Of a stretch of DNA of 64,000 bases, positions 3,655 to 59,071 are shown piece by piece. Below the pieces are notes generated by a model. The model ran no database searches and had not been told where the DNA came from. It was given only the letters and a program-made list of their open reading frames with translations. Source of the stretch: the human T2T-CHM13v2.0 reference genome, Homo sapiens. Each line of letters begins with the position of its first letter. Position 1 is the first letter of the stretch. Location: the NCBI RefSeq assembly GCF_009914755.1, contig NC_060941.1; one strand, 5' to 3'. The position numbers and the translations under genes are program-made.

Positions 3655-3956
3655 ATTATTATTATTTTATTTTTTGAAACAGAGTATCACTGTCGCCCAG
3701 GCTAGAGTACATTGGCGTGATCTTGGCTCACTGCAACCTCCGCCTCCTGGGTTCAAGCAATTCTCCTGACTCAGCCTCCCGAATAGCTGGGACTACAAGT
3801 GTATGCCACCACGCCCGACTAATTTTTGTAGTTTTAGTAGAGTCGGGGTTTCACCATGTTGGCCGGGCTGGTCTCGAACTCCTGACCTCAGGCGATCTGC
3901 CTGCTTCAGCCTCCCAAAGTGCTGGGATTACAGGTGTGAGCCACTGCACCCGACCT
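3655..3956 (-). mobile_element. AluS
   Basis: Alu consensus; AATAATG(G/A)AAATT flanks. Confidence 0.9.
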
Positions 3957-4965
3957 AATAATGAAAATTAATTATATCTGATATTATGTTGAAAAATATT
4001 CTATCCAGAGGACAGTTCGGAAACATTTACTTTTGCACTGCGTTCGATTCACGGTCTCTTATGGGGAGGAAGAGTAGGAGGATTCCATGTGCATCTGTGT
4101 TTGGGCTGTCAAGTTATCTGTATCTACATAACTATTTGTTTTCCTTTGGCTTCAAAGAAATTTTTGGTGTTGCAAGAAATATGTATATTGCAGAAAAACT
4201 GTCACTTCTTAAAATGTGCAGTTAATGGCATATCTAAATAAAATGTAATGTTTTGCTGTTAATATTTACTATTGATATATATGTTCAATAATTCCCAAAC
4301 AATTCTAACATTTAGTATTTATTAATTCTAGTATTTATTGCTACTACTGCTGCTACATGTTATGGTTCCATAGCCCCTATTCTGACAGAGCTTTGAAAAC
4401 AAAACAAACTCCCTATCTGTTCCTCCTTCCGGTTAAATATTGGAGGAAAGCAGAATAGTAATATTAATTTTTAAAGAGAAAGAAGCACAGAGAATGAACA
4501 TCAGATAGAATAAGCCCTTGAAATCGTAACTCCAAGCTGGCAAATTGAGCACATTGGATCAAGTGCAGAGTTTTCCATTCTATTCATGGGGAGAAAGAGG
4601 AAGCGAAATGGGGAGGGGTAGGAAGAACTCAGAGGGTTTAGTAGTGATTCCTTAGGAACCTGGAAACCTGGAGCTTCTGGAGACAGTGAGAACAATGGCT
4701 GGGTTTTTCTCTGCCTGTCATTTTTCAGTCCATGATGAGATGTTGAAGAAACAGAGTCCAAAGGTACACCAGTGTAAAAATGTTGCCAAAGTGAAAAGTG
4801 GGAGACTGATTTCCTCCTTCCGATTGATTGGAGAGCCATTCACTTTAGGGTGCTTCTGTTTCCTTACTCATCACACAGAGCACTGGAGTGTGGGAAAAAT
4901 CCCCATCCCACATTAAGGTTGCCACAAAGGTAAAAAAGACCTGAAGCAGAAGTTGGGAGACCTGA

Positions 4966-44522: not shown

Positions 44523-44702
44523 ACACAAGCTGGATGTTGTTTCCTGTGGCAAGTCCACAGTCCGAGTGCAGAAGGCCATCTGCAGTGGGTTCTTCCGTAA
44601 TGCTGCCAAGAAAGACCCGCAGGAGGGTTACCGGACACTGATCGACCAGCAGGTGGTCTATATCCATCCTTCCAGTGCCCTCTTCAACAGACAGCCAGAA
44701 TG
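44523..44702 (+). CDS. DHX8: DHX8 exon 22 (OB fold, ...[16 protein letters not shown])
   Basis: tgatag| acceptor, |gtaggt donor; 180 nt, ends in phase 2. Confidence 0.97.
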
Positions 44703-46102: not shown

Positions 46103-46322
46103 GGTGGTGTACCATGAGCTGGTGCTCACCACCAAGGAATACATGCGTGAAGTTACCACCATCGACCCTCGGTGGCTTGTGGAGTTTGCCCCAGCCTTCT
46201 TCAAGGTCTCAGACCCAACTAAGCTAAGCAAACAGAAGAAGCAACAGCGTCTTGAACCCTTGTACAACCGCTATGAGGAACCCAATGCCTGGAGAATATC
46301 TCGAGCTTTCCGACGGCGCTGA
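46103..46322 (+). CDS. DHX8: DHX8 exon 23 coding part (VVYHELV...SRAFRRR*)
   Basis: cctcag| acceptor, TGA 46320-46322; all exons sum to 3663 nt = 1220 aa. Confidence 0.98.
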
Positions 46323-47431
46323 AAGGCAAGATTGTTCCTTTGCCTCTCCAGCAGCAGTAGCCAGGGCTTGGACTTATCGATGACAGGCTGGTCCTGAGGA
46401 TACAGCTGTCCCGTGACTGACTGTCTTAACTGAGCATTTTCTCAACTCGACTCTCATTTCTTCCCTGCTGGTAAAATAGAAACAGGGATTTAAACCTGGC
46501 TTTGGCAAGAGCCTGCAGCCTCCATCACCCCAAGTCCTTGGGCCCAGTTGGGAGCTCATATCTAACACAGAGACACATTGCATCAACTTCAAGAAAGGGA
46601 CAATTTGTGCAGCTCCAGGATGGGAAGGTGGAGTGGGTGAGCATCTTGTGCAGGGACATGGTGAGTGCCCTGATGCCCCAGCTAGCAGGAGCTACTGTGC
46701 TCATCTAAAGTGTTTGCCCCACTTCCCACCCCGTCTCCAGCCCCTGTACTTTGGCTTGACCTCGTGGAAATATTTATTTTCTTAAGGAAACAAAAATGGT
46801 TTTCTGTGACTGTTTTCTTTTAGCCGAAAGGTTAGGATATTGGCCTGGGCTCAGGGTGAGGGAGATTTAGTATCTGTGCTCTGGCACACATGATGAGAAT
46901 CCCCTGAATCCCCTGAAACCAGAACGCAGGGCCTCTTTGCGCTCGGAAACGACGTACAACCCAGACTTCCAGCCTTGTCTTTCAGCATCAGCACTAGCCG
47001 GGCCGTGCTGGGGGATCACCCGATGATCAACCATGTCCTCTCCACAGAGCACTTCAGTCTGGAGGCCTGAGTGGCTACAGATGGCACATATTAAATACAG
47101 AAGGTTTCCCCTTGCTCCCTCCACCTCCCACATTCGCAATGTGCAGCATGTCCCATTTCCTTTTGAAACATACTAAGTAACAACACAGCTTTTATTTTAT
47201 TTTGTTTTTATTTTTTTCCCCTGAGGTCCTGGATGGACTTTAACAAAGGGATTTTATGGTCAAAACCTCCCTTTCCCCACTCCAAACAGAAAACAAACAT
47301 AACACCTCTCCTCTCAGCTGGTTTGTGCTGCCAGTATCTGTGCTGCAGGGCTTGTTCTTAGTGGTTTTTTCCTAGCACTTGCTTGGAGAATAGCCACCTC
47401 CTTGTGCCCTCCTCACAGCTCCTGAGGAGGG

Positions 47432-48245
47432 TTTTTTTTTTTTCTTCCCATAGAGATGGGTTCCCACTGTGCTGCCCAGGCTGCTCTCCAATCCCTGGCG
47501 TCAAGCAATCCTCCTGCCTCTGCCTCCCAAAGCGCTGGGATTACAGTTGAGAGCCACTGTCCTCTGCACTGAGGAGGCTCCTTACCTGGCGGAACATCAG
47601 GCAGGTCTTGCCAGGCCAGGTTTCGGAACTTACGGAAAGCTGGTCTGGATGTAGTGCTTGTAGAGAAGCTTCTGAGAGATTGGGCACATCCTGTTACGTT
47701 GCTGCTTCTCCTGTCCTTATGTTATTAGTAAGTTCTGAAGTGATGTAAATGCTAGAACTACTGTAGAACTGTATGCCAGACACTAAGAGAGACTATGTAA
47801 CATTCCAGGATATAAAGGAATGTATGTTGTCACTGGGCAGCAAACCACACCCTAAAGACAATTCAGAAAGAGTCCGAGGGAGAGGAATATAGGCCAGGCA
47901 ATCTGCTGGCTGCAGATCCCTGCCCCTTCATTAAGCTGAGTGCCTCCTGATTCTGTCTGAGTATTCGCCTTTGTAAGCCCAGGCCAGTAATCAAGGGGCA
48001 GGGCATTGTTGTGTGTTAACCTTGAAGGCCTTCTGGGGAGAGACAGTACAGGGACCTCAAATGAAACCAAAGGGGAAACGGGGACTGGGCACCCACCTCC
48101 CCAATCTCGTTTTGTTTTTGTTTTTGTTAAGACAGGATCTTGCCATCTTGCCTAGGCTGGCATCAAACTCCTGAGCTCAAGTGATCTTCCTGCCTCAGCC
48201 TCCTGAGTAGCTGGGACTACAGGTGCATGCCACCACACCTGGCTC
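47432..48245 (-). mobile_element. Two antisense Alu monomers downstream of the DHX8 stop (~47432-47560, ~48110-48245)
   Basis: Alu monomer consensus. Confidence 0.8.
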
Positions 48246-48970
48246 CCAGTCCTAATTCCAGCCTAAATTTTCCCCATTCAGAAACACTCCTGGATATAGT
48301 GGCCCAGCCTGTCCTGACTGAGTGCCCAGCACTGACAATGTTGACACCTGGGGAGGGAGGGTTGGGTTTCAAGCTGAGGTTGAAAAGGGATGTTGAATGG
48401 GCTAAGGATAAGAGACAGCAGGGTTCGTTATCTTTTCTGGCTCAGGTGGAGGAAAAAGAAGGATCCCCATTCTGTGGGTGTTCCTTGACCATCTCTCTAC
48501 GCTAGAGCTGAGGTCACTTCTCTGCTATGACAACATAGCTGGGTTCTGACCTTTTGACCATCAGGAAAGCAATGTCAGCAGCTGAGCTGAGCCTGCTCTG
48601 AGGGAGAAGGGGGGGGTCCTGTCCAGATGCAGAAGGGGAGCTTGCCTGCTGCTCTCACACAATGGAGCCCTTGTTTCTCTTCCTTGAACCAGTATTTCCC
48701 AAGATTGAGTGACAGCCCAGGAGAGGATGTGGGTCTCATGCAGAGAGCTGGGATCTTCTTGGCCATTAAAGTATATTGTTCACCCCCACCCCGCGAGAAC
48801 CAAGCTCAGGAGTTGCCTGCCTCTGCACACATGCTGAGTGTGCTGTTTGTGTATATGGCAGGACCGTCCCTATGGGGCATGTGTGAGCTCCGCAGCTGGG
48901 TCAGGCTCCTCGGTCCAGGTTTACTTCATCCCGCCTGGACGTGATTTGGCTTTGACTGTCTCTCCTGCAG

Positions 48971-49073
48971 CCCAAAGCACTTCCTCCCTGTGGTTGCTGT
49001 AGCTGTCTCATTGGAGCAGTGCCTCTCCAAGTTTGAGGATTTGAACAAAGAACTGGGACTGGTGACTTGTTAA
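48971..49073 (+). CDS. DHX8: Alternative DHX8 terminal exon (CPKHFLPVVAVAVSLEQCLSKFEDLNKELGLVTC*), 1181-aa isoform
   Basis: Acceptor ttgactgtctctcctgcag|; open in exon-22 phase; ATTAAA 49244-49249 followed by U-rich sequence. Confidence 0.7.
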
Positions 49074-49243
49074 TGAACAGTTCAGAGGGCAGAGGGCCAT
49101 CATCTCAGCTTGTGGAGACCTTTCTTTCCCTGGATGCTGCTTCTCAGCTAACTCCCTCTCTCTTCGTGTGTGTACTCGGCCTTCAGGGTTTCCACCGATT
49201 TTTACACCTTCTTCCCACCACGATAGCTTGGCTTTAATGTGGA

Positions 49244-49249
49244 ATTAAA
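49244..49249 (+). terminator. DHX8: Candidate distal DHX8 poly(A) signal ATTAAA
   Basis: ATTAAA with downstream U/GU-rich tracts; other candidates at 47090 and 48765. Confidence 0.5.
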
Positions 49250-50337
49250 TTATATATTTTTAAAACCTGTTTTTAAAATTTTGTTTCTTGCACTAAATTA
49301 TGTCAGTACATTGATATTTTGTGTTTCTAGGAAGAAGTAATGTTGCCTTTTATTTGTGGGTAGTAGTCGAGGGGCATCCCTTCCTGCAAGGGATGGTCTC
49401 AGGTTGGTGCTGGGCCAACCTGAGACATGAACAGAGTTGGGCTGGCCCAACCTCAGCACAGCTGCAGTTTCTATTTAACAGGAGAGCACCGGTTTTTACC
49501 TGAGCATGTCTCCTGGGCAGCGGTTTACATAGCAGCTGGCTCTAGAACCACCCATTCTGCCCCTCCCACCTGTTGTCACATCTCAGTCATACGTCCTCCA
49601 TAGGTGTCACCATGTTGTCCACTTTGCCATTTCTACCTACCCCCAAAAAACTCAGCCTCAGGACTCTGATCTCTCCCAAATTTGGGCAAGGAGAATCTAG
49701 GTGTTTCCCACTCCCCGGAAGATCTAATCTCCACTGGCCAGAATCCAGGGCCTGCTCTAGCCTCTCTCTGTACCATCTGGCCTGGGAGCCTTTCTCCTTT
49801 GCCCCATTCTCCAGACAAACACTTGTCCCCAACCCCAGCAAAAGTAGCAACCTAGAGCTGAGGTAGGAGGGAGGACATGCAATTGGGGTCTATGTGGGAC
49901 AGCAGGGTCATGGGAACAACTGGGATCACAGAAACCAAAGACCAAAACCCTGTCTGAGGAAGTCCCAGGAGGGAGACCCTTGCCACTCAGTAGCCCACCT
50001 GACCCGCCCACAGGGGCAGGGAGACTGCTGCTGGAAGCAGGCCCAAAGTGCACAAGGGGCGCCTGTCCAGGTTATCAAGTACCCCCTGTCCATTATTTCT
50101 GGATCCTCACACAGTAATGCTGGGAAGGGGGAAGGGCAGGTATCATTAAGCCCATTTTTCAGAAGAGAAACAGTCAGGTGAACTGCCTTTTTTCAAATCT
50201 ACATGAGGATTTAAGCGCCAGGGCCTGGCCCCAAACCAGTCAGCTCTGCTTCAAGACCAGAGCTCTTTCTACCCCCAGGTCTGTTCCCACATGGCAGCAA
50301 AGAGGACACAGGAGAACTAATGGGAGAAGTGGGGGCC

Positions 50338-50343
50338 TTTATT
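50338..50343 (-). terminator. ETV4: ETV4 poly(A) signal AATAAA
   Basis: TTTATT on + strand, about 650 nt past the ETV4 stop. Confidence 0.8.
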
Positions 50344-50993
50344 AAGGTCTGGCAGATGTGGTGGAGGTGGAAGTACAAACCCAGGCCTGGGCCTAGGAAA
50401 GGGCAGAAGAAAGGCAAAGGGTCCCTTGGAGCAGGAACCCATCCCTCTCTGCTTATACCCAGCACCCCTCATCCCAGGTTCCTTTCTTCAACCTCCGCCT
50501 GCCTCTGGGAACACAGAGCACCAAGAACTGACAAACCGGGACCCTCCAGGGCCACAGCGTGGGGCAGAGTCCAGGCTTCTGTCTCCCCGCAGTGGGAGAT
50601 CTGGGGAGCTCAGTGAACCTCCTCACCCTCCTGCCAGTATGAAGTTGGGAAGCGCCTTCTCTGTCCCCCAGAACAGAACAAACTCTTGTTCTCTGTGGTT
50701 GGGGAAAAGGTGTGGGGGGCTTGGACCTAGGAAGAAGCTGAGCTGAATTCCTCCAGGGCCCAGGTGAAACCCCCAGGGGAGTTTCTGAGACTCTAGACTT
50801 GCCATTTCTCCACTTTTCCTTCCCAATGACTCCGGTGAGCAGCTCAGAGTCTGGGCTAGGGCAACTGGTAGGACAGTGGGGATCTGCCCCAGAGACATCT
50901 GTGGGTTTCAGATGAAGGTTTCCCCAACACCAGATTCATTTATATGTACACAGGGCAGCACCCACCTGCGGCAGGGGGAACAGCCGCTGGGGG

Positions 50994-51218
50994 CTAGTAA
51001 GAGTAGCCACCCTTGGGGCCAAATGGCTGGGCGGGGCCAGCCAGCTCTGGGAGGTAGGCGGGGCTCTCATCCAAGTGGGACAAAGGGACTGTGTCCTCCT
51101 CACTGACAGGCCGGTCAAACTCAGCCTTGAGAGCTGGACGCTGATTGTCCGGGAAGGCCAAAGAGAAGAGGGCCTCGGGCTCACACACAAACTTGTACAC
51201 GTAACGCTCACCAGCCAC
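50994..51218 (-). CDS. ETV4: ETV4 last exon (13) coding part (VAGERYVYKF...GGYSY*)
   Basis: End of PEA3-type ETS domain and C-terminus; acceptor ccatag|; 225 nt. Confidence 0.97.
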   Translation of the reverse strand: MAGERYVYKFVCEPEALFSLAFPDNQRPALKAEFDRPVSEEDTVPLSHLDESPAYLPELAGPAQPFGPKGGYSY

Positions 51219-51609
51219 CTATGGGGAGAGAGAAGGTCTGGTCAGCCTGGCTAGCCGCCCAGCCTTTGTATGGGGTAAGGTGGGGGAGTGGGGAATGTGG
51301 CCCTTCTACCAGTACAGGCAGATGCTCGGGGCATTTCTCTCCCATGCTGGTTCCTGAGAAGCTGACTCTCCCTTCACAGTTCTTACTCCTTTTTCATCTC
51401 AACTTCTCCATGCTTGGGCTTCTCAGTTACAGTGTTGCACTTTTTTGGGGGAGGAGAACCTTGGGATTCTCCACAATTTCTTGTCTCTCTGACTGATTCA
51501 TTATCTGATCCTACAAAGTTGCTGAGAACTGCCCTGCTGACCCTCTCCCCAGTCAGCTTCTCACAGCCACTGCCCCCCACCACCTTGTCCCTAGACCCAC
51601 AGCCCCCAC

Positions 51610-51711
51610 CTTCTGCATGATGCCTTTCTCATAATAGTATCGGAGCGAGCGGCTCAGCTTGTCGTAATTCATGGCTGGCCGGTTCTTCTGGATGCCCCAG
51701 AGCCTGGCGAC
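51610..51711 (-). CDS. ETV4: ETV4 exon 12 ([34 protein letters not shown])
   Basis: ETS recognition helix; GT-AG boundaries; 102 nt. Confidence 0.98.
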
Positions 51712-51978
51712 CTGGGAACAAAACAGTTTTGGGGTAGAGATGCTACCTTGGCAGAGGAAAAAATGGGGGTAAGGTCAGAAAGAGCACTTGAGATTCTTGG
51801 TGCAAAGTGCCAAGCTAGCTCTGCAACAAAGCATCAGCCCACAGACTTAGGCTTGGCAAGAATTCAGGTTAGGTAAAGCAAGAATCATGATGGAGGCACG
51901 TGCCACCATTTCCCAGGTTCTCCCACCTCCAGGCTGTAAACTTTGGAAAGGAGGGCTGGGAACATCCGAGAGGCCCAC

Positions 51979-52151
51979 CTCCTCAGGCTCAATGAGCTTG
52001 AACTCCATTCCCCGGCCCGTCCAGGCAATGAAATGGGCATTTGTTGGGTCATCCAGCAAGGCCACCAGAAATTGCCACAGCTGCAGGGCACCCCGGCGCT
52101 GGTAGGGCGGCCCCTCTCGAAATGCACCGACCCCTTCCTGCTTGATGTCTC
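51979..52151 (-). CDS. ETV4: ETV4 exon 11 (DIKQE...[14 protein letters not shown]...IEPEE)
   Basis: Start of ETS domain; 173 nt; GT-AG. Confidence 0.98.
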
Positions 52152-52358
52152 CTGGGGAACACGAAAATAGGAGGTGTGGGGTTTGTGTCTTTTGGTCCCC
52201 CAAGCAACCGCCTCCCACCCGAGGGATTTCTCGAAGGGGTCTCCCCAGGTACTTTTCTATGGGTCCCACCCTCTTGCAACAATGAAACGTGATGTGACTC
52301 CTGCAGGGACACAGCGTGATAAGACCTTGACCCTCCCATCAACAGTCACTTCTCTGAC

Positions 52359-52427
52359 CTTCAAATTTCTCAGGGACAACGCAGACATCATCTGGGAATG
52401 GTCGCAGAGGTTTCTCATAGCCATAGC
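52359..52427 (-). CDS. ETV4: ETV4 exon 10 (GYGYEKPLRPFPDDVCVVPEKFE)
   Basis: cacaag| acceptor, |gtcaga donor; 69 nt. Confidence 0.95.
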
Positions 52428-52581
52428 CTTGTGGAGGAAATTGGGGGTTGCTCAGATCTGGGGGTTCACCGATGAGACCCCAGAGAGTCCAGAGGGACTC
52501 CTGGCCAGGGAGACCCTCCCCCATGGCAGCGCTCCCTCCCCCAACATGGAGGGCTTGGCAGGGGAAGGGGGGCTGCCTTAC

Positions 52582-52656
52582 CCATGGCCCCGTCACCTGG
52601 AGAGGGCCCAGAGAAGCCCTCTGTGTGGAGGTACATTGATGCGCACCCGGTGACAT
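52582..52656 (-). CDS. ETV4: ETV4 exon 9 (DVTGCASMYLHTEGFSGPSPGDGAM)
   Basis: ccacag| acceptor, |gtaagg donor; 75 nt. Confidence 0.95.
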
Positions 52657-53071
52657 CTGTGGGGGAAGAAGGGGTGATGTGAGAAGTGGCTTGGGGTGGA
52701 GCTCGAGGGCAGGGGAGGAGGAAGTCCTATCCACATTCAAGAATTTCTTCCTTCCAGCCTGCTTCCTGGTGACTGTTCTTTGCCCAGGTTGCCTGCCAAC
52801 CACAAAATCCCAGGGAAAGTTCACCCAGAGGGAGTGTGATGCTGGAACCCCTCCTCAACTTGAGGGCTGCGGCTGAGGCCATGGAAGGCAGCAGCGGGGG
52901 CTGGGCAAGCTGTTCTGAAGGGCCCAAGCTGCCAGGGAGCAGCTGTTTCCTGCGAGTTCAGGGGGAGGAGGGAGGGTGAGATGAACGTCCGGGGAAAGAG
53001 TTCGGTGTCCACGCCTAAGACTCCCTCAGAATGGACAAAAATGTCCGGTCAGCAGGTCAGGTTCCCAGCCC

Positions 53072-53109
53072 TGTGCACGCGCGCGTGTGTGTGTGTGTGT
53101 GTGTGTGTG
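53072..53109 (+). repeat. (CG)n(TG)n alternating purine-pyrimidine tract
   Basis: TGTGCACGCGCGCGTGTGTG... seen directly. Confidence 0.95.
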
Positions 53110-53322
53110 AGACAGAAACAGAGCGTGCGCCTGCATGCACCTGGGGAAGAGGCAGTGGGCACTGGGCCTTGTTTTTTCAGGTCTAACAGAGCACATTCCA
53201 CTTCGTTTCATTCCATTCCATAGGATAGGAACCTTCCCACTCCACATCGGGAAGGCGGCTGTGTGAAGCCACCCGTTCAAGTTCCAACCCCTTCCCGCCC
53301 TCCCCCCACTGCACTCCCACCT

Positions 53323-53422
53323 ATGAATGAGAAGATGGTGAAACATGACACCTCCGGGAGGAGGCGGGAGGGTGGGCTCATTCATGCCTCCATTTTGTGA
53401 ATGGAATTCCTGACTCCATTCA
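53323..53422. promoter_or_regulatory. Cluster of Capicua (CIC)-type octamers in ETV4 intron 8
   Basis: TGAATGGA 53398-53405, TCCATTCA 53415-53422, near-matches TGAATGAG 53324-53331 and CTCATTCA 53377-53384. Confidence 0.6.
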
Positions 53423-53979
53423 GGAGTAGCTGGGGGGAGGGGCAGGAGTTCAAGGGCATGTAACACAATCCCCTCCGGTCTACAGCCTTTGAAGGTCAGC
53501 GGCAAGAGTGCCTCCCTCCTCCTCTCCCCAGCTCACTGCCAAGCCTGGCTCAGGCTTATGCCCTGGATTTGAGGACAGGAGCACCATCCGGTTCTTAGTT
53601 GGACAGCCTGGGGGGTTGTGGTTCATCCCCCTGCCCTTGAACGGTTGTGGGCACCACAAAAAGGGAAATTCTAAAGTTCTAGCTAGCTCTGGGCCTACTC
53701 TAATAAACTCAGATCTAGGGCTACTAATGTAACAAAAGCCAGGAGGAAAGAAGAAAAGGCAGGGTTTTCTGGACCCTTCCTGGGACTGGCCCTCCTTCGG
53801 CCCTTGAGGCTTTGAACTATAGCTATTTATGAACACAGGTGAGTGCATCTCACTCCAGTCAACAGCCAGGTGGAACTAGAATTTAAAGAAGTCCCTACTT
53901 CCTCTGCCCTTGCCTCTGGCCAGGGCATACATCAATTGGGAGGCTCAAATATGTAAGCCACATATTAACCTGTGCTTCT

Positions 53980-58660: not shown

Positions 58661-58886
58661 TCAGATATAAGGCAATGGAGAACCAGAGGGATAGTGTCTG
58701 CTCTAAGGTCACACAGCAAGAACATGTCAAGCCCCAGATTTCAACCAAGGTTTTCATTCCAGTTATTGCCTTGGTCTTTAAGATCAAACCCCACTGTGTT
58801 TTAGGAGAGAACAAGCTGCTCTCTTGTGATTCTCTATCCTATGACTCACTTCCTGCCATCCTCCACTCCCTATACCCTCTCCCCAG

Positions 58887-58973
58887 GGACCTCTACTCAC
58901 GGTTTTCTGAATGGAAATCAGGAACAAACTGCTCATCACTGTCTGGTACCTGAGCTGCAGAGAGAAGTCAGAG
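58887..58973 (+). other. Candidate + strand exon antisense to ETV4 exon 5, in frame with DHX8 exon 22 (WDLYSRFSEWKSGTNCSSLSGT*)
   Basis: Acceptor ctccactccctataccctctccccag| and consensus donor GAG|gtgagt. Confidence 0.55.
58901..58954 (-). CDS. ETV4: ETV4 exon 5 (AQVPDSDEQFVPDFHSEN; COP1 degron)
   Basis: ctgcag| acceptor, |gtgagt donor; 54 nt, phase 1-1; conserved PEA3-family EQFVPDF motif. Confidence 0.95.
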
Positions 58974-59071
58974 GTGAGTTTGGGGCGGAGCCCTGGTTGT
59001 CCCCTGGGAGGCTCCATTATTACAGCCCTGCAGATTAGCAACAGCCAAGAAAGGACCAACAGCCTTTAGAT

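What the first reader, a model, noticed from the sequence alone, without database searches (positions are those of the whole stretch)
58887..58973. Mirror exon: a DHX8-strand exon that fully covers ETV4's COP1-degron exon in antisense
Seen: on + there is a long pyrimidine tract with CAG (58886) and a consensus GAG|GTGAGT donor (58973/4). The 87-nt exon between them covers ETV4 exon 5 (58901-58954) plus 14 and 19 nt of both its splice-site flanks. Joined to DHX8 exon 22 (phase 2) it reads WDLYSRFSEWKSGTNCSSLSGT*, giving 1169 aa; the stop is only 20 nt before the donor, so it would escape NMD if the next exon is the last. About 53 nt would code on both strands. Established: ETV4 exon 5 encodes ExxVP-type COP1 degron residues (EQFVPDF) and is 54 nt, phase 1-1, so skipping keeps the frame. 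Inference: DHX8 read-through RNA could act as a natural splice-switching antisense, or cause polymerase collision, yielding degron-less stabilised ETV4. A DHX8 variant extending into ETV4 may already be annotated; the regulatory link is the new idea.
Basis: partly seen in the sequence, partly recalled or inferred. Interest (0 to 1): 0.8.

Follow-up and report, generated by a model that had tools for sequence, protein, structure and literature searches.

The report
Annotated DHX8 read-through exon mirroring ETV4 exon 5
A rare, already annotated extension of the DHX8 gene carries an 87-base exon lying exactly opposite the small ETV4 exon that holds both COP1 destruction signals, but nothing yet shows that it controls ETV4.

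Summary
The + strand has CAG|G at 58885-58887, an 87-nt exon (58887-58973) and GAG|GTGAGT. It covers ETV4 exon 5 (58901-58954) plus 14 and 19 nt of its flanks. Joined to DHX8 exon 22 it reads W-DLYSRFSEWKSGTNCSSLSGT-stop, giving 1169 aa.

The exon is already in the RefSeq table supplied with the finding, and the DHX8 gene end (67274) sits 16 nt after an AATAAA.

The regulatory idea has no support.
- The upstream junction 44702>58887 is assumed. A 3'UTR donor at 46660 is an equally good partner and would make the exon untranslated.
- The 1169-aa protein would have a cut OB-fold.
- ETV4 exon-5 skipping is reported but rare: 7.1% of ETV4-expressing TCGA prostate tumours, and not at 1% or more in any of six cell lines.
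- No paper searched links DHX8 and ETV4 through antisense.

My reading is that the exon is a by-product. ETV4's own branch-point-like ACTCAC and its G-runs after the exon read, in reverse complement, as a donor and a C-rich acceptor tract. DHX8 has no AATAAA after its stop, so polymerase may run on. The feature is real and the function is unproven.

The parts
58845..58886 (+). 3' splice region of the + strand exon. It has a branch-point-like CTCAC (58845-58849, A at -39), an AG-free pyrimidine-rich tract and CAG.
   Evidence: 16 of 18 pyrimidines. The window PWM scores it 9.37, with 12 of 31 annotated acceptors higher. The branch point is inferred.
58887..58973 (+). 87-nt alternative DHX8 exon, antisense to ETV4 exon 5 and its splice sites.
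   Evidence: Listed in the RefSeq table supplied with the finding. Sequence, translation.
58951..58953 (+). TGA stop in the frame carried over from DHX8 exon 22, 20 nt before the donor.
58974..58979 (+). 5' splice site GTGAGT (GAG|GTGAGT). On the minus strand it reads ACTCAC, branch-point-like, with its A 21 nt before ETV4 exon 5.
   Evidence: It is one of 4 AGGTRAGT words in the window. The PWM scores it 8.54, with 17 of 30 annotated donors higher. The branch-point role is inferred.
58901..58954 (-). ETV4 exon 5, 54 nt, codons 68-86. It encodes V70P71D72, S73 and V78P79D80.
   Evidence: PMC10075989 and PMC8151852 passages.
58861..58900 (-). ETV4 exon 5 donor (ACC|GTGAGT) followed by three G-runs at about +17 to +33. 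Their complement is the C-rich acceptor tract of the + exon.
   Evidence: The donor scores 0.76 on the window PWM, with 28 of 30 higher. An enhancer role for the G-runs is inferred from general knowledge.
44523..44702 (+). It encodes the first half of the OB fold.
   Evidence: Pfam PF07717 profile positions 1-48 of 83.
46103..46660 (+). DHX8 last coding exon (stop at 46320-46322), used as an internal exon through the 3'UTR donor ATG|GTGAGT at 46660. This is the alternative upstream partner.
   Evidence: and the hub table. Pfam PF07717 profile positions 52-82 of 83.
49244..49265 (+). ATTAAA and the poly(A) site shared by three alternative DHX8 terminal exons.
   Evidence: and the hub table.

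Best explanation
The 87-nt exon is a real, low-use exon of DHX8 transcripts that fail to terminate after the DHX8 3'UTR. They run about 19 kb into the convergent ETV4 gene and end at a poly(A) site in ETV4 intron 4 (window 67274).

The exon sits where it does because ETV4's own splicing signals around its small, weak-donor exon 5 mirror into + strand splice signals. The branch-point-like ACTCAC 21 nt before the exon reads GTGAGT on the other strand. The G-runs after the exon's donor read as a C-rich polypyrimidine tract ending in CAG|G. A second ACTCAC further out supplies a + strand branch point.

The resulting RNA is most likely non-productive. If it is spliced from 46660, it is a normal DHX8 reading frame with an intron-bearing 3'UTR, which is NMD-prone. 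If it is spliced from 44702, it encodes a 1169-aa DHX8 with half of its OB fold replaced by 21 unrelated residues.

Shown: the sequence anatomy, the annotation, and the poly(A) signals. Inferred: low abundance, the branch-point and enhancer roles of the mirrored elements, and the lack of function.
For: - The exon and the gene end at 67274 are in the RefSeq table. AATAAA lies at 67253, 16 nt before that end.
- No AATAAA occurs on + between the DHX8 stop (46322) and 53702. There are only three ATTAAA, and no hexamer of either kind lies within about 1 kb upstream of the selected transcript's end at 48145. This fits leaky termination.
- The mirror anatomy can be read directly.
- ETV4 exon 5's donor is the second weakest of 30 on the window PWM.
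- 3 of 8 ETV4 internal exons, against 0 of 21 DHX8 exons, have an antisense acceptor scoring 9 or more within 40 nt. This fits G-rich intron starts mirroring into acceptor tracts.
- The paralogous exons of ETV1 and ETV5 keep the coding sequence but have AT-rich flanks and no mirror sites (0 of 2). So the sites come from ETV4's intron context, not from the coding sequence.
- Pfam places the exon 22/23 boundary inside the OB fold, and the lost 72 aa are conserved in Prp22, Prp16 and Prp43 chains.
- No strong donor (NAG|GTRAG) lies on + between 58974 and 67274. This fits one further, terminal exon.
Against: - I could not see any expression data, so 'rare' and 'non-productive' are inferences.
- The configuration is unusual: 1 of 29 exons, and 0.16% of random intervals. 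The exon covers exactly the ETV4 exon that holds both COP1 cores, which leaves room for selection.
- Conservation of the + strand sites in other mammals could not be tested.
- The PWM rests on only 30 donors and 31 acceptors from this window.
Confidence: 0.7

Rival explanations
1. The DHX8 read-through RNA, and above all its spliced 87-nt exon, pairs with ETV4 pre-mRNA across the 3' splice site, exon 5 and the 5' splice site. This would force exon-5 skipping and yield an ETV4 lacking both COP1 cores, which would therefore be stable.
For: - The exon is complementary to intron 4 positions -19 to -1, all of exon 5, and intron 5 positions +1 to +14.
- Exon 5 has a weak donor. Skipping it is in frame and removes both VPD cores.
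- Mutating these cores stabilises ETV4 (PMC10075989, passages).
- A 4-6 junction is reported in 7.1% of ETV4-expressing TCGA prostate tumours and in no peritumoral tissue (PMC10066307, Table 4).
- Antisense overlap is thought to affect splicing at THRA/NR1D1 (PMC4569393, passages).
Against: - No data link the two RNAs. 0 papers hold DHX8, ETV4 and antisense together. The listing for the 15 papers that hold DHX8 and ETV4 showed mostly GWAS and genomic-survey titles, none on antisense (14 listed; titles and abstract starts only).
- Exon-5 skipping alone did not reach 1% in any of six cell lines by Nanopore, while exon-4 skipping reached 11.5% (PMC10066307, Table 3).
- Spliced mRNA is exported, and action in trans needs nuclear co-presence at matching amounts.
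- The TTN-AS1-276 effect was independent of exon overlap (PMC12054628, abstract).
Confidence: 0.06
2. The read-through matters as transcription, not as an exon. Convergent DHX8 polymerases running over 17 kb of ETV4 would dampen ETV4 output in general (transcriptional interference or double-stranded RNA), with no special effect on exon 5.
For: - The annotated DHX8 span overlaps ETV4 from its 3' end (50321) to intron 4 (67274), stopping 176 nt short of exon 4 (67450-67497).
- DHX8 has weak terminal signals.
- Interference between convergent genes is a known phenomenon (general knowledge).
Against: There is no measurement of read-through level here, and nothing in the papers read points to it.
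Confidence: 0.12
3. The exon serves DHX8. Spliced from exon 22, it makes an NMD-resistant mRNA for a 1169-aa helicase with an alternative C-terminus that has a function of its own, for example as a dominant-negative form.
For: - The frame stays open for 21 codons, and the stop lies 20 nt before the last likely junction.
- That is inside the 50-55 nt window in which a stop codon escapes NMD (general rule).
Against: - The OB fold (PF07717) would be cut at about profile position 50 of 83.
- The lost segment is conserved among DEAH helicases.
- An open run of 21 codons is expected by chance about 36% of the time (my arithmetic).
- The 44702>58887 junction is unverified, and it would have to skip a strong acceptor at 46103.
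Confidence: 0.04
4. The exon is an annotation artefact, a model built from mis-stranded ETV4 reads.
For: It overlaps an ETV4 exon, and predicted RefSeq models can be wrong.
Against: - Its ends (58887 and 58973) differ from ETV4's (58901 and 58954) and carry AG and GT only on the + strand.
- A matching AATAAA and gene end exist on + at 67253 and 67274.
Confidence: 0.05

Closest known systems
THRA (TR-alpha2) / NR1D1 (Rev-erb-alpha) convergent antisense overlap
   Same: Two convergent protein-coding genes whose transcripts overlap in antisense at an alternatively used exon. The authors state that several lines of evidence suggest the overlap affects expression of the mRNAs (PMC4569393, abstract and passages).
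   Different: There the overlap joins the final exons of two abundant mRNAs and is eutherian-conserved, with mutational data. Here a rare read-through exon covers an internal 54-nt cassette exon, and neither function nor conservation is shown.
TTN-AS1-276 natural antisense transcript
   Same: An antisense transcript that changes exon usage of the sense gene (PMC12054628, abstract).
   Different: [quoted passage not shown] That argues against simple masking as a default mechanism. It is also a dedicated lncRNA, not the tail of a coding gene.
Synthetic splice-switching (exon-skipping) antisense oligonucleotides
   Same: The 87-nt exon is complementary to both splice sites and the whole body of the target exon, which is what an exon-skipping oligonucleotide targets (general knowledge, recalled).
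   Different: It is embedded in a long, capped, presumably exported mRNA of unknown abundance. It is not chemically stabilised, and no effect has been shown.
Degron-loss forms of PEA3-family factors (ETV4-AAA, TMPRSS2-ETV1 truncations)
   Same: An exon-5-skipped ETV4 would lack V70P71D72 and V78P79D80, the sites whose mutation stabilises ETV4. Truncated ETV1 fusions lacking the COP1 degrons accumulate (PMC10075989 and PMC8151852, passages).
   Different: Those arise by engineered mutation or chromosomal fusion. A splice-derived form is only reported as a rare junction (PMC10066307, Table 4), and its stability has not been measured.
ETV4 exon-skipping isoforms catalogued in prostate cells
   Same: Same gene and same exon numbering. 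The delta-5 isoform appears as the 4-6 junction (PMC10066307, sections 6-7).
   Different: The paper does not mention COP1 or antisense (0 occurrences of each) and did not study delta-5. Its common forms are delta-4, delta-7, delta-8 and delta-6-8.

Membership tests
cis-natural antisense pair (convergent genes) with exon-exon overlap | Transcripts arise from opposite strands of the same locus. | tested here: met
   The splice-site dinucleotides fix the strands: AG..GT on + at 58885/58974, and on - at 58955/58899. Both exons are in the RefSeq table supplied.
cis-natural antisense pair (convergent genes) with exon-exon overlap | Mature exons, not only introns, overlap. | tested here: met
   58887-58973 (+) contains 58901-58954 (-) in full (and the hub table).
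cis-natural antisense pair (convergent genes) with exon-exon overlap | Both RNAs are present in the same cells. | not testable with these tools
Antisense-regulated alternative splicing (THRA/NR1D1 type) | The antisense RNA covers the regulated splice sites. | tested here: met
   It covers intron 4 positions -19 to -1 and intron 5 positions +1 to +14. The putative branch A at -21 lies just outside.
Antisense-regulated alternative splicing (THRA/NR1D1 type) | The sense exon is alternatively spliced. | tested here: inconclusive
   The 4-6 junction is in 7.1% of ETV4-expressing TCGA prostate tumours (Table 4). It is not at 1% or more in any of 6 cell lines (Table 3). Source: PMC10066307.
Antisense-regulated alternative splicing (THRA/NR1D1 type) | Changing the antisense level changes the sense splicing. 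| not testable with these tools
   This needs an experiment. No paper was found.
COP1 degron, (D/E)(D/E)-x-x-x-V-P-(D/E) as written in PMC8151852 | A V-P-(D/E) core with acidic residues upstream. | tested here: met
   VPD occurs at residues 70 and 78. E67 stands before the first core and D74-E75 before the second.
COP1 degron, (D/E)(D/E)-x-x-x-V-P-(D/E) as written in PMC8151852 | Mutating the core stabilises the protein in a COP1-dependent way. | not tested
   Taken from the literature: V70P71D72 and V78P79D80 changed to AAA (PMC10075989, passages).
Stop codon that escapes NMD (50-55 nt rule, general knowledge) | The stop lies less than about 50 nt before the last exon-exon junction. | tested here: inconclusive
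   The stop is 20 nt before the donor. That the next exon is the last one is only suggested: no strong donor lies on + up to the poly(A) site. The frame applies only if the junction is 44702>58887.
Intact DEAH-helicase OB fold (Pfam PF07717) | The whole 83-position domain is present. | tested here: not met
   This applies to the putative 1169-aa variant. Exon 22 gives profile positions 1-48 and exon 23 gives 52-82, and the variant lacks exon 23.

The most novel reading that the evidence does not exclude
DHX8, itself a splicing helicase, would through leaky termination make a natural exon-skipping antisense against the one ETV4 exon that holds both COP1 cores and the ERK site Ser73. Cells with more read-through would then make a COP1-resistant, long-lived ETV4. 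The + strand splice sites would be kept by selection for this purpose.
Probability: 0.05. Interest if true: 0.7.

Novelty: already known. Interest (0 to 1): 0.3.

Why it matters
ETV4 dosage is set largely by COP1-mediated destruction, and a degron-dead ETV4 is enough to start prostate neoplasia in mice (PMC10075989, passages). A natural route to a degron-less ETV4 would therefore matter for cancer and for FGF/ERK-driven development.

As things stand, the exon is an annotated minor DHX8 variant and the link to ETV4 is only an idea. The useful by-products of this check are:
- both COP1 cores and Ser73 sit in one skippable 54-nt exon with a weak donor;
- a simple sequence rationale (branch point mirrors to donor, G-runs mirror to acceptor tract) explains why an antisense exon can form exactly over a small exon in a GC-rich gene.

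Tried and rejected
- Conservation in other mammals could not be tested: no vertebrate genome other than the window's own is reachable.
- Expression and junction reads could not be checked: no RNA-seq resource is available.
- Which upstream donor joins 58887 could not be settled. The table lists exons, not transcript structures.
- Paralogue test: the ETV1 and ETV5 exons were found in the own genome. They have no antisense splice sites (0 of 2). So 'the coding sequence forces the mirror sites' is rejected.
- 'Every exon has a mirror' is rejected: 1 of 29.
- 'The donor word is itself improbable' is rejected: 4 found against 5.15 expected.
- 'Sequence strength proves use' is rejected: about half of the equally strong pairs on + are not annotated exons.
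- The first Pfam call failed on a mis-framed exon 21 reference. I dropped exon 21 and repeated with exons 22 and 23.
- Literature. DHX8+ETV4 gave 15 papers; the 14 listed were mostly GWAS and genomic-survey titles, none on antisense (titles and abstract starts only). ETV4+'natural antisense' gave 6, none relevant by title or abstract. DHX8+ETV4+antisense gave 0. ETV4+'exon 5'+skipping+degradation gave 1, unrelated.
- The genome-wide study of antisense transcription and alternative splicing that I recalled (Morrissy et al., Genome Res 2011) is not held in the library. It turned up only as a cited title.

Full report
**1. What is there**

On the + strand the sequence reads ...ccctctccccag|GGACCTC... 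with AG at 58885-58886. The exon runs from 58887 to 58973 and is followed by GTGAGT (GAG|GTGAGT).

Upstream of the AG lies a CTCAC at 58845-58849, 39 nt before the exon. From there to the acceptor there is no other AG, and 16 of the last 18 bases are pyrimidines. So the + strand carries a complete set of plausible 3' and 5' splice signals.

The RefSeq table handed over with the finding lists exactly 58887-58973 among the 'exons of other transcripts' of DHX8 and puts the DHX8 gene end at 67274. I fetched the DNA beyond the window from the window's own genome. An AATAAA lies at 67253, 16 nt before that end. The long DHX8 form therefore ends in ETV4 intron 4, 176 nt short of ETV4 exon 4 (67450-67497).

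The exon cannot be a mis-stranded copy of ETV4 exon 5. Its ends differ from ETV4's and have AG and GT only on the + strand.

**2.

- DHX8 exon 22 ends ...GAA TG|gtaggt at 44702.
- TG plus the first G of the exon gives W. The exon then reads DLYSRFSEWKSGTNCSSLSGT and stops at TGA 58951-58953, 20 nt before the donor.
- The peptide of the normal last exon matches DHX8 residues 1149-1220 in solved spliceosome structures. The variant would therefore have 1148+21 = 1169 residues.
- The minus strand of 58902-58952 reads QVPDSDEQFVPDFHSEN.
- The exon is 54 nt, flanked by phase-1 introns. Its flanks are covered for 14 and 19 nt, and the two frames overlap over 53 nt.

**3.

I translated ETV4 exons 2-6 from the genome. 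This puts VPD at residues 70 and 78, both inside exon 5, which spans codons 68-86.

- Passages of PMC10075989 state that ETV4 was stabilised by V70P71D72-AAA and V78P79D80-AAA at two adjacent COP1-binding sites of the form ExxVPD.
- Passages of the review PMC8151852 add that ERK phosphorylation of S73, between the two degrons, blocks COP1 binding. S73 is also in the exon.
- Skipping exon 5 keeps the frame, creates no stop in the part translated, and leaves no VPD.

**4. Is it more than chance?**

The donor word AGGTRAGT occurs 4 times in the window on both strands, against 5.15 expected from shuffles. Two of the three on the + strand are annotated exon ends.

I built a position-weight matrix (PWM) from the window's own annotated splice sites. 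Equally pyrimidine-rich acceptors number 27 on + and 18 on -. The matrix rests on 30 donors and 31 acceptors, so it is rough.

- The candidate donor is near the median of annotated donors (17 of 30 higher).
- The candidate acceptor is above the median (12 of 31 higher).
- 22 pairs on + and 14 on - score at least as well. Only about half of those on + are annotated exons.

So sequence alone would not prove use. The annotation does that.

The position is what is unusual. Of 29 internal DHX8 and ETV4 exons in the window, only ETV4 exon 5 has an antisense acceptor and donor within 40 nt of its two ends, at either threshold. For random intervals the rate is 0.16% at the candidate's scores and 2.0% at relaxed ones.

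Across a whole genome that rate would still give hundreds of such exons by chance. A 21-codon open frame is expected about 36% of the time (my arithmetic).

**5. Why there**

Read on the ETV4 strand, the 3' end of intron 4 is ...ccaaACTCACctctgacttctctctgcag|, and exon 5 is followed by GTGAGTAGAGGTCCCTGGGGAGAGGGTATAGGGAG....

- The ACTCAC fits the branch-point consensus yUnAy (recalled), with its A at -21. Its reverse complement is the + strand GTGAGT.
- The three G-runs at about +17 to +33 are, in reverse complement, the C-rich tract that ends in CAG|G.
- G-runs just after a donor are known splicing enhancers of small or weak exons (general knowledge, recalled).
- Exon 5's donor ACC|GTGAGT is the second weakest of 30 on the window matrix.

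Further support for the mirror idea:
- 3 of 8 ETV4 internal exons have an antisense acceptor scoring 9 or more within 40 nt, against 0 of 21 DHX8 exons. ETV4 is the GC-rich, short-intron gene of the two.
- The homologous exons of ETV1 (QVPDNDEQFVPDYQAES) and ETV5 (QVPDDEQFVPDFQSDN, 51 nt) keep the coding sequence. They sit in AT-rich introns and have no antisense sites (0 of 2).

The mirror sites are thus a property of ETV4's intron context. The branch-point and enhancer roles are inferences.

**6. Why polymerase gets there**

Between the DHX8 stop (46320-46322) and 53702 the + strand has no AATAAA. It has only ATTAAA, at 47090, 48765 and 49244.

- The last of these precedes the shared end, 49265, of three alternative terminal exons.
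- The selected transcript's end at 48145 has neither hexamer within about 1 kb upstream.

Weak terminal signals fit leaky termination, but I have no measurement of it.

**7. What the RNA would be**

The table also lists an exon 46103-46660, and ATG|GTGAGT lies at 46660 in the 3'UTR. Two upstream partners are therefore possible, and I could not settle which is used.

- From 46660: the reading frame is the normal one. The stop lies 338 nt before a junction, so the RNA would be NMD-prone by the usual rule, and the mirror exon is untranslated.
This would need the strong acceptor at 46103 to be passed over.

In the second case the Pfam OB_NTP_bind domain is split. Exon 22 gives profile positions 1-48 and exon 23 gives 52-82 of 83. 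The lost 72 residues are conserved in Prp22, Prp16, Prp43 and DHX15 chains. So the product would have a broken fold.

No strong donor lies on + between 58974 and the poly(A) site.

**8. The regulatory idea**

For it:
- The exon is complementary to both splice sites and to all of exon 5.
- Exon 5 looks weak.
- A 4-6 junction is reported in 7.1% of ETV4-expressing TCGA prostate tumours and in no peritumoral tissue (PMC10066307, Table 4).

Against it:
- In the same paper's Nanopore survey, primed in exon 3, exon-5 skipping alone is not among the forms reaching 1% in any of six cell lines. Exon-4 skipping reaches 11.5% (Table 3).
- That paper mentions neither COP1 nor antisense.
- The unspliced read-through is complementary to exons 5-13 alike.
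- A spliced mRNA would have to stay in the nucleus in sufficient amount.
- For TTN-AS1-276 the effect on exon usage was independent of exon overlap and of Pol II rate (PMC12054628, abstract).
- I found no paper linking the two genes in this way.
- Supplements of these papers were not opened. Those of PMC10066307 might list low-frequency delta-5 reads.

**9. Comparison and verdict**

The closest known case is the convergent THRA/NR1D1 overlap (PMC4569393). The locus meets the structural criteria of a convergent antisense pair with exon-exon overlap. The functional criteria are untested.

The physical feature is already annotated, so I rate it already known, with modest interest.

Noticed in passing
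window 46322-53702 (+), especially 48085-48145: No AATAAA lies on the + strand for 7.4 kb after the DHX8 stop. The selected transcript's 3' end at 48145 has no AATAAA or ATTAAA nearby and is followed at once by sequence that looks like an inverted Alu (my reading).
   Followed up: partly
window 51595 and 56316 (+): Two more strong antisense acceptors lie just outside ETV4 exons 12 and 6 (window-PWM scores 9.9 and 14.1). They have no good donor on the far side. G-rich ETV4 intron starts seem to mirror into acceptor tracts repeatedly.
   Followed up: partly
L003:3450-3497 (window 67450-67497, minus strand): ETV4 exon 4 (48 nt) supplies E67, the acidic residue before the first VPD core. Its skipping is the commonest in-frame N-terminal variant, up to 11.5% in PC3 (PMC10066307, Table 3). 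It may weaken the first COP1 site. That paper did not discuss this.
   Followed up: no
L006 (own genome contig C3) and L005 (contig C7): The ETV5 exon is 51 nt and lacks the codon matching ETV4 Ser73. ETV1 has Asn there. This agrees with the review's statement that the ERK site is specific to ETV4.
   Followed up: partly
L003:1741-1790, 3671-3712, 4411-4462: Long dinucleotide microsatellites (CA/CT and GT runs) lie in ETV4 intron 4, intron 3 and the region upstream of the coding start.
   Followed up: no
window 58843-58849 (+) = minus strand about +47 after ETV4 exon 5: A second donor-like AAG|GTGAGT lies on the ETV4 strand 47 nt after the real exon-5 donor. It is the mirror of the + strand's branch-point-like ACTCAC and could serve as a cryptic ETV4 donor.
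   Followed up: no
whole locus: ETV4 and DHX8 are named together in the abstract of an antidepressant-response GWAS (PMC9117153; search listing only).
   Followed up: no
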